From NCBI GenBank assembly GCA_000004985.1, contig GG739242.1: DNA of 2,870 bases; one strand, 5' to 3'. The notes under the pieces were generated by a model. It saw nothing but the letters and a program-made list of their open reading frames with translations, made no database searches and was not told the DNA's origin. Positions 1-2,870 of the stretch are shown here, piece after piece. Each line of letters opens with the position of its first letter. Within the stretch, counting starts at the first letter, position 1. The stretch comes from Naegleria gruberi. Taxonomy: Eukaryota. A program made the position numbers and the translations under genes.

Positions 1-184
1 AGTTTACAAAGCAATCAAACATTAAAAATGTCACAAATGGTCATGTTATGTGACGTGTTGGTTGGAAACAATTCTAAACAATAAGATTATTAATAGATTA
101 TTTCTATTTTGAATATTTGGGAAAATCTCTTCATTGAATTGGTGAGAAAGGAAAAATGTTGAGACTTTTTGATGGTTGGTGAGA

Positions 185-190
185 TTTAAT
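185..190 (-). promoter_or_regulatory. Candidate poly(A) signal variant ATTAAA on the minus strand, about 170 nt after the stop.
   Basis: Plus-strand tttaat at 185-190. No canonical AATAAA (plus-strand tttatt) occurs in 1..356. This is a weak motif-only call. Confidence 0.15.
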
Positions 191-321
191 ACAAACACTT
201 AAAAGAACATTGTAGTAGACTTTCTGGAATACACAAAAGAGTTACCATCATACAATGATTGTATCAAATATTATTAGAAATGGTTGTTGTCTGAATAGTA
301 AATGGAACAACTCTAATTGTT

Positions 322-350
322 GACGCCATTTTTTTACTGTTATTGGCGCC
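322..350 (-). promoter_or_regulatory. GC-rich stem-loop in the 3'UTR, 7 nt downstream of the stop codon. It forms a 7-bp stem and 15-nt A-rich loop on the mRNA strand.
   Basis: The plus strand reads GACGCCA-tttttttactgttat-TGGCGCC. On the minus (mRNA) strand this is GGCGCCA AUAACAGUAAAAAAA UGGCGUC, giving 7 contiguous pairs including one G.U wobble. On the plus strand the same position is an A.C mismatch. It is the most GC-dense spot in the flank. Confidence 0.3.
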
Positions 351-356
351 AAATCT

Positions 357-918
357 TTAAAGATGGATTGTGAAGATTAATTGATTCAATGCTTGAGTTA
401 TTTGTTTGAAGGTTGGTCTGTTGTGGGGATTTTGATCCCAACATTGTTTCATGAGGTCAATGTATTGAGAGCATACTTTCGAATAATTTAAATCACTTTC
501 GATTGATTTCACATATTCTCCAATCCAAGTTTCTAGCTCAGTTGAGTTATTCCAGGGAATATCTGGTCTCTCACCTTTCACTACTCTCATTGGTATTGAA
601 AAGGAAAATTGTTGCAGATCTCCTTCTCTACTATCCAATGTATTCGAAATGACTTTCCTCATCTTGATCGAATTCGAAGGATAGTAAGGTTTCTCCTCAA
701 AGAATAATTCATACATTATCATACTAAAACTATAAACATCAATTGCACTTCCAATTTCATGTCCACTTCCAATAATTTCTGGAGCCATATACAGAAAAGT
801 TCCCAAGTTCATTGTCATGGTTGAGCTTCCTGAACTTGAAGTCAATTTGGATAATCCAAAATCACATACTTTGGGATTCAAATTTGAATCTAGTAAAATA
901 TTGCCTGGTTTCAAATCT
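357..918 (-). CDS. Receptor-like TKL kinase, exon 2. Covers the catalytic loop (R)DLKPGN, DFG, activation loop, APE and C-lobe to the C-terminus, including the TAA stop at 357-359.
   Basis: Translation gives RDLKPGNILLD (Asn codon 900-902), KVCDFGLS (DFG at 855-863), YMAPE, DVYSFSMIMYEL (subdomain IX), KGERPDIP and CWDQNPHNRPTF (subdomain XI). It ends ..FTIHL then TAA. All invariant kinase residues are present. Confidence 0.85.
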
Positions 919-1338
919 CTATTTTTCAATAAATTCTCAATTGACCAAAAAAAAAACGTACCTATGAATGAGTGCTCTTGGTTTCAGTGAATGTAAATAA
1001 TCCATACCACTTGCAATTCCTTTCAAAATTTCAATCTTACTTTTCAAATCAAGATTTTTCCTTCCACATTTGCATTGTGCAATAATAGAATCTAAACTTC
1101 CATTTTCCAAATATTCCACAACCATATACTTGTTAGTATTCGAAAGGGTAACCCCATAAAACCTCACAATACTTGGATGCCTCAAGCTATTCAAAAGGCT
1201 TGCCTCATGTTCAAACTCATCATTGGATATCTCACTACTTTCAGTCTTGATACTTTTCAGCGCAACTTTAGTTTCGTTCCAATTTGCTAAAAAAACAGTA
1301 CCCATCGCTCCTTCCCCAATTCTCTTTACAATTTCAAT
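375..1338 (-). other. Protein kinase catalytic domain (TKL-like, predicted active), interrupted by the intron at 919..961.
   Basis: Subdomains I through XI are recognisable in order: GxGxxGxV, VALK, alphaC Glu, H|RDLKPGN, DFG, APE, DxYSF, CW..P..RP. KVCDFGLS and DVYSF are typical of the TKL group, including Raf/MLK-like and amoebozoan TKLs. Confidence 0.85.
919..961 (-). other. Spliceosomal intron, 43 nt, GT..AG, phase 2. Sense strand: GTACGTTTTTTTTTTGGTCAATTGAGAATTTATTGAAAAATAG.
   Basis: Exon 1 ends ..ATT CAT AG (His at 964-966, AG at 962-963). The minus-strand donor is GTACGT at 961-956 and the acceptor is TAG at 921-919. Joining AG to A(918) gives AGA, so the spliced sequence reads H-R-D-L-K-P-G-N, the universal kinase catalytic loop. 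Without splicing the frame runs HRYVFFLVN then TGA (937-939) and the HRDLKPGN motif is destroyed. Confidence 0.8.
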
Positions 1339-2870
1339 ATCTTCTATTGGAATAATAATATTACTAGCATTGGAGGTCAGTAAATTAATCAAGAGTGGTG
1401 ATTCATCTCCAAATACGAATTGCTTGTCAATTAATTTAAAAGCAATTTTCTTCTCCTTTCGTTCTCTGTTATAGAACTTGATGAGGGTCTGAACTATTTT
1501 AATGCATGACACAATTCCAATAATTAATAGCACCAATAAAATGGTAAATCCGAAAACAGCTGCCAAAATAATTGCAGTATGTGCTTTGAAAACACAAACT
1601 CCTGTGGAAGTATCAATTGAATAATCAAAAGGACACTTCTCCACTTGAATTCCAATTTTAAATGAAAAATCTCTGTCTACAAATTGAACTGTCACATTCA
1701 CAAGTTCTTGTTTGTCAGTCAGTTTCGTATTTTGAATAAAGATATTGAATACAGTATTGTTATAGAGATCTAATGAATTTGTAACAATTCTGTGTGTACT
1801 GTTTGAATTTAAGGAAATGGAAGGAGGAGTTAGGGAATTTTGTAAAGTATTATTGAAATAGTCAATTAGTGAAAATGAGACAGTTACAGATTGGCCTGGA
1901 TAGAGAGAAATGATATTGAATTCATTAGAACTGAATGGAGTTTCTCTTCCAATAATTCTATACTCTACACTTTGCAAATTTCTAGATCCAATATGAGTAA
2001 TGGAAAGTTTAGGTTCTTGATTCGGCAAGGTTCCATAGAAAACCACATCTCCAGAATAGCTTGCCTTATTATTAATAAATTGATTGGATTCTCCAAACAA
2101 GCACTCATTAAAACAAATCCCTCCTTTCACTGCATGATTGTTTTGAAACTTTGATTTACTGAAAAAACCATACGAATCTGAATAAACTATTCCTCCACTT
2201 CCACATTCTACAAGGTTATTACAATCGAAAAATCCAGAAAGTGCTTCATTTGAAATGAACTCAGAGTTGAAATCTGAAAATGTAGCTCCTTTCAAATAAA
2301 ATACACCTCCATTTGCAGCTCTATTCGAAACGAACTTACAATCAGATATTTTCAAATTAGTATTAATTGAGTTAATGACCCCTCCATTATCTCCTATATT
2401 GTCTTGAAATATCGAAAATGCAATTTGTATATAAAAAATAACTCCCTCCAAAAATGTAGGATTCGTTACTCGAATAGGTTTTACATTTCGAATAAAATTG
2501 CATGCTTCCATTTGAGTGGCAGCCACATATTCTAAAGAGAGTGCATTCAAACTGTTTGAGAAATTAGAATTCGCTACTACTAATTGTTGTGTTCCTACTA
2601 TTGATAGAGAACTATTCATTGTGAAATTTGACATTAAAACTTCAAAACTTGTCGTTCCAATCTCAAGAATTGATGAATTGATAAAACTAGATAGAGTAAT
2701 GATGGAATTAATTCCTCCTCTCAAATCCAACTGTGAATCGAGTATTGTTGATGAAATAATTGAAATAGCTCCTAATTCATTCTGAACAGAAGTGGAAACT
2801 ATATTCGAATCTTCAAAAGTACATCCACGTAAGGATTTAATCTTACTCTTCTTAATATCACAATTTCTAT
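962..2870 (-). CDS. Receptor-like TKL-family Ser/Thr protein kinase, exon 1 (5'-partial). Covers the ectodomain, transmembrane helix, juxtamembrane region and kinase N-lobe up to the His of HRD.
   Basis: The minus-strand frame is continuous and stop-free from 2870 down to 964 (my translation of 2731-2870: ..RNCDIKKSKIKSLRGCTFEDSNIVSTSVQNELGAISIISSTILDSQLDLRGG..). The ORF-track start at 2730 is a TTG codon inside this frame, not a true ATG. The translation contains GEGAMGTV (glycine loop), VALK (beta3 Lys, codon 1255-1257), the alphaC Glu and ..YLHSLKPRALIH. The exon ends CAT AG|GTACGT, with the donor G at 961. Confidence 0.85.
1501..1575 (-). other. Single transmembrane helix, AIILAAVFGFTILLVLLIIGIVSCI, followed by the stop-transfer cluster KIVQTLIKFYNRERKEKK.
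   Basis: This is the only long hydrophobic segment, 25 uncharged residues. A Lys/Arg-rich stretch lies immediately C-terminal (positive-inside rule), so the kinase is cytoplasmic and the N-terminal part is extracellular. Confidence 0.75.
1576..2870 (-). other. Extracellular or lumenal ectodomain (partial; continues beyond the window). Rich in N-x-S/T sequons and predicted beta-rich.
   Basis: N-glycosylation sequons include NSS, NFT, NSS, NFS, NNT, NST, NNT and NVT. The region is Ser/Asn/Thr/Ile/Phe-rich with alternating hydrophobic patterns typical of beta-strands. A membrane-proximal Cys pair, C..13 aa..C, lies at 1594..1635. Confidence 0.6.
2026..2418 (-). repeat. Protein-level tandem repeats of Pmp (polymorphic membrane protein) type: FxxN ... 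GG[AV][IF], about 25-residue period, at least 5 copies. Predicted parallel beta-helix.
   Basis: The repeats are FQDNIGDNGGVI, FVSNRAANGGVFY (NGGVFY confirmed at 2296-2313), FISNEALSGFF / FDCNNLVECGSGGIVY, FQNNHAVKGGICF and FINNKASYSGDVVFY. The FxxN Asn positions are spaced 25, 25, about 37 (with an extra degenerate copy) and 23 residues apart. A second, shorter-period F-x-N-S-x-L..G repeat (SFINSSILEIG / SNFTMNSSLSIVG / SNFSNSLNALSLEY) lies N-terminal at about 2524..2688. Confidence 0.5.

What the first reader, a model, noticed from the sequence alone, without database searches (positions are those of the whole stretch)
357..2870. Unusual architecture: Pmp-like beta-helix ectodomain fused through one TM helix to an active TKL kinase
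A catalytically complete TKL-type kinase, with all invariant residues present, sits behind a single TM helix. Its ectodomain is built from FxxN/GG[AV][IF] repeats of the kind that define chlamydial polymorphic membrane proteins. Pmp-type repeat proteins are known as bacterial adhesins/autotransporter passengers and as surface proteins in a few protists (Trichomonas Pmp-like family). In those proteins the repeat domain is an adhesin with at most a short tail. Here it appears to serve as the ligand-binding domain of a signalling receptor kinase. I do not recognise this domain combination as described. It would mean adhesion or contact sensing is coupled directly to Ser/Thr phosphorylation.
Basis: partly seen in the sequence, partly recalled or inferred. 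Interest (0 to 1): 0.7.

Follow-up and report, generated by a model that had tools for sequence, protein, structure and literature searches.

The report
Naegleria receptor kinase with Pmp-like β-helix ectodomain
The window encodes most of a single-pass membrane receptor from a Naegleria-like amoeba whose outside part is a bacterial-adhesin-style β-helix and whose inside part is an intact Ser/Thr-type protein kinase; it belongs to a small, unnamed family in Naegleria, including the brain-eating N. fowleri, that split or truncated gene models have hidden.

Summary

Four to five helix coils (aa 154-277) carry FxxN-x4-GG units with Pmp spacing. The window itself does not reach Pfam PF02415. Its profile, however, finds thousands of Pmp-repeat proteins, and three family members pass Pfam's Chlam_PMP threshold.

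The same module order occurs in N. gruberi NAEGRDRAFT_73913 and in two environmental contigs as clean ORFs. It also occurs at one N. fowleri and two N. lovaniensis loci, where annotation splits it into a "Pmp-like" gene and a "kinase" gene. I found no paper describing the combination.

I read it as a lineage-specific type I receptor Ser/Thr (TKL-like) kinase, a new ectodomain variant of a known receptor class. Ligand, localisation, activity and the adhesion-sensing idea are untested inference.

The parts
962..2870 (-). Exon A (partial CDS, open at the window edge). It encodes aa 1-635 plus two bases of R636: ectodomain, TM helix, juxtamembrane segment and kinase N-lobe up to 'IH(R)'.
   Evidence: ORF list and six-frame translation; spliced model.
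1999..2868 (-). Right-handed parallel β-helix part of the ectodomain (about aa 1-290, roughly 12 coils). It is truncated at the N-terminus by the window edge.
2038..2409 (-). Five Pmp-type coils (aa 154-277): FQDN-IGDN-GGVI, FVSN-RAAN-GGVF, FISN-EALS-GFF with insert CNNLVECGSGGIVY, FQNN-HAVK-GGIC, FINN-KASY-SGDV.
   Evidence: Motif counts against shuffles. hmmsearch and phmmer hits to Pmp-repeat proteins map to aa about 140-280. BLASTP to the PF02415 protein P0002 aligns the repeats in register.
1639..1986 (-). Membrane-proximal all-β domain (about aa 295-410) with a conserved YPGQ...D.F.N signature. It is predicted to be an Ig-like/Big-type β-sandwich.
1576..1638 (-). Cys-containing stalk (aa 411-431, KCPFDYSIDTSTGVCVFKAHT). 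The first Cys and the CP motif are conserved across the family.
   Evidence: Alignments A2 and A3: C412 is invariant in both, and the second Cys (C425) is also invariant in A3.
1501..1575 (-). Single transmembrane helix (aa 432-456, AIILAAVFGFTILLVLLIIGIVSCI).
   Evidence: Direct reading of the sequence. A hydropathy scan of the homologue P0001 finds one segment at the equivalent place.
1345..1500 (-). Basic, conserved juxtamembrane segment (aa 457-508), including ...KREKKEK...LIDKQ...IIIPIEDIEIV.
   Evidence: 75% identical to N. gruberi P0001, against 45-51% for the ectodomain. The motif is shared with L002, L003, L004 and the EGF-ectodomain relative P0167.
962..1344 (-). Kinase domain, N-terminal part (aa 509-636): G-loop GEGAMGTV, VALK, αC Glu, hinge, up to HR.
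   Evidence: Pfam; motif table; 87% identity to P0001.
919..961 (-). 43-nt intron (GTACGTTTTTTTTTTGG...AAAAATAG), phase 2, splitting the HR|D catalytic-loop codon.
   Evidence: Removing it restores HRDLKPGN and a 186-codon open frame. The N. gruberi model P0001 ends exactly at ...SLIHR.
357..918 (-). Exon B: kinase C-terminal part (DLKPGN, DFG, 29-aa S/T-rich activation segment, APE, DVYSF, a long insert between subdomains IX and XI, CW..RP) and the stop codon at 357-359.

Best explanation
The window holds the 3' about 2.5 kb of a gene from a Naegleria-like heterolobosean. The closest relative is N. gruberi; the species was not determined.

The gene encodes a type I, single-pass receptor protein kinase. 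From outside to inside it has these modules:
- a right-handed parallel β-helix whose last 4-5 coils keep the Pmp-type FxxN-x4-GG signature
- an Ig-like β-sandwich
- a short Cys stalk
- one TM helix
- a basic, conserved juxtamembrane segment
- an RD-type, TKL-like Ser/Thr kinase with a complete catalytic apparatus and an S/T-rich activation loop.

Shown by sequence or tools: the continuous frame, the module order, the predicted folds, the catalytic motifs, and conservation of the whole arrangement in several Naegleria genomes and environmental relatives.

Inferred, not tested:
- The protein sits in the plasma membrane with the β-helix outside. Homologues with complete 5' ends have signal peptides.
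- The β-helix and β-sandwich bind an extracellular ligand. For a bacterivorous amoeba the most likely ligand is a surface glycan or a particle or cell surface.
- Ligand-driven dimerisation or clustering brings the kinase domains together for trans-autophosphorylation of the activation loop. This would start a Ser/Thr, or possibly dual-specificity, phosphorylation signal.

The ectodomain evolves much faster than the kinase, as expected for the recognition end of a receptor.
For: One frame carries ectodomain, TM helix and kinase. The kinase scores Pfam 3e-57 and has all invariant residues. Its nearest solved kinases are TKL and TK members: CTR1 at 5e-38, then Eph, TAK1, ZAK and CERK1.

- A profile of the window plus the N. 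gruberi ectodomain finds 3,508 proteins at E<=1e-3 and 313 at E<=1e-10, matching positions about 145-280.
- All 7 sampled hits carry PF02415 above the gathering score.
- The window alone finds 28 of the top 150 at E<=1e-3, scaled to 1.84e9 sequences.
- Family ectodomains from L005 (43.9 bits), L004 (25.6) and L002 (24.0, plus Beta_helix 31.1) pass Pfam's thresholds.

The same colinear architecture appears in:
- N. gruberi XP_002670975.1, 636 aa
- L002 and L003 as clean ORFs with one 40-nt intron; L003 has a signal peptide
- N. fowleri L004 and N. lovaniensis L005 and L006, each as adjacent same-strand 'Chlam_PMP (faint)' and kinase gene models 45-92 bp apart.

The window ectodomain aligns with L003 over aa 149-418, through both the repeats and the β-sandwich (E = 4e-13). 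Identity to the N. gruberi homologue rises from 45% (β-helix) to 51%, 56%, 75% and 87% (kinase).
Against: There is no experimental or transcript evidence here for expression, splicing, membrane topology, kinase activity or any ligand.

The window lacks the N-terminus, so its own signal peptide is unseen. The window's repeats do not reach any curated Pmp model and contain no strict GGA[ILV].

AF2 confidence is only moderate. Mean pLDDT is 60 and 62, from very shallow alignments, and the region aa 180-290 and the β-sandwich are weakly supported.

The N. fowleri and N. lovaniensis loci have unexplained frame breaks, so those copies could be split genes or pseudogenes rather than single receptors.

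The TKL assignment was not made with kinase-group HMMs.
Confidence: 0.72

Rival explanations
1. Adhesion receptor reading. The Pmp-like helix is primarily an adhesin that sticks the amoeba to prey, substrate or host cells, and the kinase reports contact.
Against: The conserved FxxN/GGA residues face the helix interior and are considered structural (PMC11166332), so homology of the repeat does not transfer adhesin function. Most β-helix structural neighbours are glycan-binding or glycan-cleaving proteins. No binding data exist. This reading cannot be separated from the best explanation with the tools used here.
Confidence: 0.3
2. Tethered enzyme. The β-helix is a catalytically active pectin-lyase-fold glycanase or lyase displayed on the surface, and the kinase regulates or reports its activity.
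For: The top structural neighbours are tailspike depolymerases, GH110, GH28 and GH87 enzymes, and PL1 and PL6 lyases.
Against: No CAZy-type Pfam family is hit at E<=10. Sequence relatives are Pmp-repeat proteins, not enzymes. Identity to the structural neighbours is only 8-15%, and no catalytic residues were identified.
Confidence: 0.07
3. Annotation or evolutionary artefact. The ectodomain and kinase are really two neighbouring genes, as annotated in N. fowleri and N. lovaniensis, or the window copy is a decaying pseudogene.
For: The N. fowleri and N. lovaniensis annotations list separate genes. Those loci contain frame breaks and one in-frame TAG.
Against: In the window, the frame runs unbroken from the β-helix through the TM helix into the kinase N-lobe, 635 codons with no stop. 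The same holds in L002, L003 and the N. gruberi model. The annotated N. fowleri 'kinase' gene starts inside the extracellular β-sandwich at MYPQQPLEWSIYPGQ, which makes no sense as a stand-alone start. All catalytic residues are intact, and kinase identity to N. gruberi is 87%.
Confidence: 0.05
4. Generic β-helix rather than a Pmp relative. The FxxN/GG units are convergent features of any three-sided β-helix coil, and the Pmp label is misleading.
For: The window gives no PF02415 hit and has no strict GGA[ILV]. The GG-to-FxxN spacing is 11-13 residues, shorter than the chlamydial 14-18.
Against: Profile hits reach 9e-35 and are multi-stretch matches to proteins that carry PF02415. Three family members pass Pfam's own gathering score. 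The FxxN-x4-GG spacing is the canonical one.
Confidence: 0.12

Closest known systems
Dictyostelium TKL receptor kinases (GDT family, DRK rk1-rk3)
   Same: They are protist single-pass receptors: signal peptide, lineage-specific extracellular domain, one TM helix and a C-terminal TKL-group kinase. They form small paralogous families, and rk3 uses an Ig-like TIG domain (PMC1420674).
   Different: They come from a different supergroup, Amoebozoa rather than Heterolobosea. Their ectodomains are described as unique 'gdt' and 'drk' domains, not Pmp or β-helix. No sequence relationship beyond the kinase fold was found here: the nearest kinases to the window are all heterolobosean or environmental.
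Trichomonad Pmp-like surface proteins (48 in T. vaginalis)
   Same: They are eukaryotic type I membrane proteins whose ectodomain carries Chlamydia-type Pmp repeats followed by one TM helix (PMC6701047).
   Different: Their cytoplasmic part is a short tail with endocytic motifs such as NPx[YF] and an acidic cluster, with no kinase. Here a 366-aa juxtamembrane-plus-kinase module replaces the tail.
Chlamydial polymorphic membrane proteins (Pmp autotransporters)
   Same: The extracellular domain is a β-helix whose coils carry FxxN followed 4-5 residues later by a GG-hydrophobic motif, one unit per coil (PMC11166332).
   Different: Chlamydial Pmps have 20 or more coils, a Pmp middle domain (PF07548) and a C-terminal 12-strand β-barrel translocator. 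The window protein has about 5 motif-bearing coils, no middle-domain or autotransporter hit, an α-helical TM anchor and a kinase.
Plant receptor-like kinases (RLK/Pelle) and Raf-like TKL kinases such as CTR1
   Same: The best solved-structure match of the kinase domain is CTR1 (5e-38). CERK1 and LysM RLKs also score about 1e-31. RLKs share the 'variable ectodomain, one TM helix, Ser/Thr kinase' logic, including glycan-sensing ectodomains.
   Different: There is no orthology. Identity is about 30-35%. The ectodomain types differ (LRR, LysM, lectin and others). The kinase here has a long insert between subdomains IX and XI that its heterolobosean relatives share.
Entamoeba transmembrane kinases (TMKs)
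   Same: They are an amoebal multigene family of single-pass receptor kinases implicated in sensing and phagocytosis (my own knowledge; mentioned in papers found).
   Different: TMK ectodomains are Cys-rich CXXC repeats, not β-helices. Many are pseudokinases. The lineage is unrelated. None of this was tested here.

Membership tests
Chlamydial Pmp autotransporter family | Multiple GGA[ILV] and FxxN tetrapeptides with regular spacing (GGA[ILV]-x14-18-FxxN; FxxN-x4-5-GGA) | tested here: inconclusive
   FxxN-x4-[GS]G occurs 4 times and GGxx-x11-13-FxxN 4 times, far above shuffles. Strict GGA[ILV] occurs 0 times in the window, against 3 in the N. gruberi homologue, and the spacing is slightly short (definition from PMC11166332).
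Chlamydial Pmp autotransporter family | Match to Pfam PF02415 (Chlam_PMP) or NCBIfam POMP repeat at the curated threshold | tested here: not met
   The window gives no hit at E<=10. The threshold is met by the family members L005 (43.9 bits), L004 (25.6) and L002 (24.0) against a gathering score of 20.6, and by 7 of 7 reverse-search hits.
Chlamydial Pmp autotransporter family | Pmp middle domain (PF07548) and C-terminal autotransporter β-barrel | tested here: not met
   No such Pfam hits. The C-terminal half is a TM α-helix plus a kinase.
Chlamydial Pmp autotransporter family | Right-handed parallel β-helix passenger fold | tested here: met
Eukaryotic Pmp-like surface proteins (trichomonad type) | Pmp-repeat ectodomain, a single TM helix and a short cytoplasmic tail with endocytic motifs | tested here: not met
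   The ectodomain and TM helix are present. The tail is replaced by a 366-aa juxtamembrane-plus-kinase module.
Eukaryotic protein kinase superfamily, active enzyme | G-loop, VAIK Lys, αC Glu, HRD Asp, catalytic-loop Asn, DFG, APE, subdomain IX Asp and subdomain XI Arg | tested here: met
   All are present at the expected positions. Pkinase scores 3.3e-57. Activity itself was not tested.
TKL (tyrosine-kinase-like) group | Kinase-group classification: closest to TKL families, with an HRDLKxxN Ser/Thr-type catalytic loop and high scores on both Pkinase and PK_Tyr_Ser-Thr | tested here: inconclusive
   The best PDB hit is CTR1 (TKL). TAK1, ZAK and CERK1 (TKL) are interleaved with Eph, EGFR and LCK (TK). 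The catalytic loop is HRDLKPGN. The two Pfam scores are 194 and 185 bits. No kinase-group HMM library was available.
Type I single-pass receptor kinases | N-terminal signal peptide | not testable with these tools
   The window cuts off the N-terminus. Signal-peptide-like N-termini are present in the homologues L003, L004 and L005.
Type I single-pass receptor kinases | Exactly one TM helix between the extracellular domain and a C-terminal kinase, with a positive-inside juxtamembrane segment | tested here: met
   The TM helix is aa 432-456 and is followed by KIVQTLIKFYNRERKEKK. The same layout is seen in P0001, L002, L003 and L004.
Dictyostelium GDT/DRK receptor kinases | Shared 'gdt' or 'drk' extracellular domain, or kinase orthology | not tested
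   No Dictyostelium sequence appeared among the 120 nearest kinases or the top 150 ectodomain hits. No direct comparison with GDT or DRK sequences was possible.

The most novel reading that the evidence does not exclude
Naegleria and its relatives built a private family of prey- or host-contact sensors. They did so by fusing a bacterial-type Pmp β-helix, possibly acquired by lateral transfer from Chlamydiae-like or other bacteria that live with amoebae, to a TKL kinase. The kinase clade swaps ectodomains: a sister receptor carries EGF repeats. The N. fowleri member(s) take part in recognising bacteria or mammalian cells. That would give the first receptor-kinase entry point into Naegleria feeding and pathogenesis signalling, and the first case of a Pmp-type domain used for transmembrane signalling rather than passive adhesion.
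Probability: 0.2. Interest if true: 0.7.

Novelty: new variant of a known kind. Interest (0 to 1): 0.45.

Why it matters
Receptor kinases outside animals and plants are poorly charted. Published surveys of Naegleria sensing list GPCRs, histidine kinases and cyclases but no receptor Ser/Thr kinases.

This family shows that Heterolobosea assembled their own single-pass receptor kinases, using a β-helix of the Pmp type as the outside module. Such repeats have so far been discussed only as adhesins or autotransporter passengers.

There are also two practical points. First, current N. fowleri and N. lovaniensis annotations split these loci into two unrelated-looking genes, and the N. gruberi model is truncated at an intron. 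Domain-architecture databases therefore cannot show the combination, and these models need re-examination (re-annotation or re-sequencing). Second, a surface-exposed, kinase-coupled protein in N. fowleri is a reasonable candidate for host or prey recognition studies and a potentially druggable target.

It is not a new principle of signalling. It is a new ectodomain choice within a known receptor design.

Tried and rejected
- Pfam and NCBIfam scans of the window ectodomain for PF02415, PF07548 or POMP gave no hit at E<=10.
- A word-indexed search with the full-length protein at E<=1e-30 was too strict and returned only P0001. That search was wasted.
- phmmer of the window protein against the L002 and L003 ORFs returned nothing because HMMER's bias filter removed both targets. 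I re-ran with BLASTP and --nobias. For the same reason, the empty phmmer result against the 119 nearest kinase hits is weak evidence.
- The look-up of encoding contigs could not locate the N. gruberi locus for P0001. I therefore could not check whether that gene continues past the shared HR| intron site.
- The metagenome scan with the ectodomain alignment found no confirmed relatives.
- I tried to bridge the N. fowleri and N. lovaniensis frame breaks with GT..AG segments of 29 nt and 21 nt. These are shorter than the 40-43-nt introns seen elsewhere in the family, so I do not claim them. Long-read indel errors or pseudogenisation remain equally possible.
- I tested synteny of the window's 3' neighbour with the convergent RGS gene seen in L001 and L004. 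The 27-codon open frame at window 1-84 shows no similarity to those C-termini.
- The multi-pass C-terminal block of some other Pmp-repeat proteins gave no Pfam family.
- The window contains no tRNA, Rfam family or DNA-level tandem repeat of note.
Full report
WHAT IS IN THE WINDOW

The window has 32% G+C. Its only substantial coding feature is on the minus strand. A 597-codon ORF (937-2730) continues open to the window edge at 2870, and a 190-codon ORF (357-929) follows in another frame. The two are joined by a 43-nt segment at 919-961 with canonical ends (GTACG...AATAG). Removing it fuses ...LKPRALIH-R to DLKPGNILL, which recreates the kinase catalytic loop HRDLKPGN. Without splicing the frame stops nine codons later. 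The spliced product is 822 aa, lacks its N-terminus, and ends at the stop codon 357-359. The finding's coordinates are therefore right. The rest of the window (1-356) contains no tRNA, no Rfam family and no meaningful tandem repeat.

THE CYTOPLASMIC HALF

Residues 432-456 form the single strongly hydrophobic stretch and are followed by a K/R-rich segment.

Residues 512-811 match Pfam Pkinase (3.3e-57) and PK_Tyr_Ser-Thr (1.6e-54). Every catalytic signature is present:
- GEGAMGTV
- VALK
- the αC glutamate
- HRDLKPGN
- DFG
- APE
- DVYSF
- the subdomain XI arginine.

The activation segment is 29 aa with ten Ser/Thr. The best solved relative is the Raf-like TKL kinase CTR1 (5e-38). It is followed by a mixture of TK members (Eph) and TKL members (TAK1, ZAK, CERK1/LysM RLK). 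'TKL-like, Ser/Thr-type catalytic loop' is a fair description. I could not run a formal kinase-group classification.

THE EXTRACELLULAR HALF: REPEATS

- FxxN occurs 10 times, against 3.7 expected from shuffles.
- GG[AVI][IVFLY] occurs 3 times, against 0.13.
- FxxN-x4-[GS]G occurs 4 times, against 0.09.
- GGxx-x11-23-FxxN occurs 4 times, against 0.012.

The published definition of the Pmp coil is FxxN, then 4-5 residues, then GGA[ILV], then 14-18 residues (12-23 relaxed) to the next FxxN, one unit per β-helix coil (PMC11166332). Against that definition the window has five consecutive units starting at aa 154, 179, 204, 241 and 264, which is window 2038-2409. The FxxN-to-GG gap is canonical. The GG-to-FxxN gap is slightly short at 11-13 residues. 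The alanine is replaced by Val or Ile, so strict GGA[ILV] does not occur. The third unit carries a Cys-containing insert (CNNLVECGSGG) that recurs in homologues.

The direct database test is negative. Neither Pfam PF02415 or PF07548 nor the NCBIfam POMP repeat is hit even at E<=10. The reverse test is clearly positive:
- An exhaustive HMMER search with a profile of the window and N. gruberi ectodomains finds 3,508 proteins at E<=1e-3 and 313 at E<=1e-10.
- Apart from the N. gruberi protein, all listed hits (the top 150) match profile positions about 145-280, many times over.
- Seven of seven sampled hits carry PF02415 above the gathering score, and one also carries Beta_helix.
- The window sequence alone recovers 28 of the top 150 at E<=1e-3, scaled to the whole library. 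The best is 7e-12, and coverage is concentrated on aa 140-280.
- BLASTP against a bacterial PF02415 protein aligns the repeats in register.

THE EXTRACELLULAR HALF: FOLD

An AlphaFold2 model from a two-sequence alignment has pLDDT 73-92 over aa 10-180 and a regular three-short-strand pattern. Confidence falls after aa 180.

The ectodomain is therefore composite, not simply 'built from Pmp repeats'.

RELATIVES

The closest protein is N. gruberi NAEGRDRAFT_73913 (XP_002670975.1, D2VXZ4), annotated as 'predicted protein'. It has the same ectodomain, TM helix and kinase N-lobe. Its model stops at ...SLIHR, exactly the window's intron site.

Identity between the two rises along the protein: 45% in the β-helix, 51% in the β-sandwich, 56% in the TM helix, 75% in the juxtamembrane segment and 87% in the kinase. 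This is the pattern expected for a receptor with a fast-evolving recognition end.

The nearest kinases are all heterolobosean (N. gruberi, N. fowleri, N. lovaniensis, Acrasis kona) or environmental. Inspecting their contigs showed the following.
- L002 (JGI) and L003 (ENA) each have a long Pfam-less ORF directly upstream of the kinase ORF. Removing a 40-nt GT..AG intron just before the VAxK motif gives 1,004-aa and 1,101-aa proteins with Pmp-type coils, a β-sandwich, a Cys stalk, a TM helix, the same juxtamembrane motif and a full kinase. L003 begins with a signal peptide.
- In N. fowleri (VFQX01000067.1), a 629-aa gene flagged 'Chlam_PMP (faint)' lies 45 bp upstream of kinase gene FDP41_009158. 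That kinase's annotated start, MYPQQPLEWSIYPGQ..., lies inside the conserved β-sandwich.
- In N. lovaniensis two loci repeat this arrangement.

The ectodomains of L005, L004 and L002 pass Pfam's own Chlam_PMP threshold with 43.9, 25.6 and 24.0 bits against 20.6. L002 also passes Beta_helix. The family is therefore a genuine Pmp-repeat family, and the window copy is its most degenerate member.

The window ectodomain aligns with L003 over aa 149-418, through both repeats and sandwich (E = 4e-13).

The N. fowleri and N. lovaniensis loci contain one to three frame breaks that I could not resolve. The candidate GT..AG bridges are 29 and 21 nt, shorter than the family's 40-43-nt introns. Long-read indel errors or gene decay are equally possible.

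A further relative, P0167, has the same juxtamembrane motif and kinase behind an EGF-repeat ectodomain. This points to ectodomain shuffling within the kinase clade.

HOW IT PROBABLY WORKS

Shown:
- a single frame
- the module order
- the predicted folds
- an intact RD-type catalytic core
- an S/T-rich activation loop
- conservation of the arrangement across species.

Inferred:
- Type I topology, with signal peptides seen only in homologues and a positive-inside juxtamembrane segment.
- Surface exposure.
- Ligand binding by the β-helix and β-sandwich.
- Activation by ligand-induced dimerisation or clustering and activation-loop trans-autophosphorylation, as in other single-pass receptor kinases.

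The ligand is unknown. Structural neighbours are mostly glycan-binding or glycan-cleaving proteins and adhesins, so a microbial or cell-surface glycan is the most economical guess for a bacterivore.

The adhesion-sensor idea cannot be separated from this reading. It gains nothing from the motifs themselves, because they face the helix core and are considered structural.

COMPARISON WITH KNOWN SYSTEMS

In design the protein resembles Dictyostelium GDT/DRK receptor TKL kinases, plant RLKs and Entamoeba TMKs. Each has a lineage-specific ectodomain, one TM helix and a Ser/Thr kinase.

Its ectodomain is of the kind seen in chlamydial Pmps and trichomonad Pmp-like proteins. It fails the defining features of the Pmp autotransporter family: no middle domain, no β-barrel, and no curated-model hit for this copy. 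It also differs from trichomonad Pmp-like proteins, which have short endocytic tails.

NOVELTY

Six literature searches found no description of a Pmp or β-helix ectodomain on a protein kinase, or of receptor Ser/Thr kinases in Naegleria. The 2023 Naegleria pangenome paper's account of environmental sensing does not mention them.

The sequences are public but unnamed, and the architecture is masked by truncated or split gene models. I rate this a new variant of a known kind: a known receptor design with a previously unreported ectodomain choice, conserved as a small family.

It is of moderate interest. It would not astonish a specialist, since ectodomain shuffling on receptor kinases is common. 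It does open a concrete, testable entry into Naegleria surface signalling, and it identifies annotation errors in the N. fowleri and N. lovaniensis genomes.

Noticed in passing
L004 6067-9800 (N. fowleri VFQX01000067.1); L005 2489-6375 and L006 3672-6847 (N. lovaniensis PYSW02000006.1 and PYSW02000015.1): Public annotations split what reads as one receptor kinase into a 'Chlam_PMP (faint)' gene and a kinase gene 45-92 bp apart. The loci contain frame breaks and one in-frame TAG. Only 21-29-nt GT..AG segments could bridge them, so the cause (micro-introns, long-read indels or pseudogenes) is unresolved.
   Followed up: partly
P0001 (N. gruberi XP_002670975.1), C-terminus: The N. gruberi gene model ends exactly at ...SLIHR, the position of the window's intron, so it lacks the whole catalytic and C-terminal half of the kinase. 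It also starts without a signal peptide. The model is probably truncated at both ends.
   Followed up: partly
P0167 (JGI metagenome protein, 501 aa): A close kinase relative (49% identity) with the same juxtamembrane 'IIPIEDI' motif has an EGF-repeat ectodomain instead of a β-helix. This suggests ectodomain swapping within the kinase clade.
   Followed up: partly
P0011, P0014, P0031, P0032, P0046, P0047, P0048, P0050, P0060 (hits): Several long Pmp-repeat proteins from large ENA contigs end in a Cys-rich stalk followed by a conserved multi-pass block of about 5-7 TM helices ('NxTVAVGxxNxxxFYANI...') that matches no Pfam family. Pmp-type ectodomains may therefore also sit on an uncharacterised multi-pass membrane module.
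   Followed up: partly
window 360-780 (aa about 696-795): The kinase has an unusually long stretch of about 95 aa between subdomain IX (DVYSF) and subdomain XI (CW..RP). The relatives L002, L003 and N. fowleri P0153 share it with partial conservation (...VVKGERPDIP...). Its function is unknown.
   Followed up: no
window 1-84, + strand: An open frame runs from the window start to a TAA at 82-84 (SLQSNQTLKMSQMVMLCDVLVGNNSKQ*). It could be the C-terminus of a convergent neighbouring gene. It shows no similarity to the RGS-domain genes that lie convergent to the kinase in L001 and L004.
   Followed up: partly
L001 1088-2356 and L004 9917-11782: In an environmental contig carrying the closest kinase relative (P0152, 53% identity) and in N. 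fowleri, an RGS-domain gene lies convergent immediately downstream of the kinase gene. This may be conserved synteny.
   Followed up: no
window 919-961; L002 3089-3128; L003 3857-3896: The family's introns are very short (40-43 nt) and sit at different positions: inside HR|D in the window, and probably in N. gruberi, but before the Trp preceding VAxK in L002 and L003.
   Followed up: no
window 2038-2409: The Pmp-type protein repeats leave no DNA-level tandem-repeat signal (TRF finds nothing there). The coils are therefore old and diverged, not a recent expansion.
   Followed up: yes
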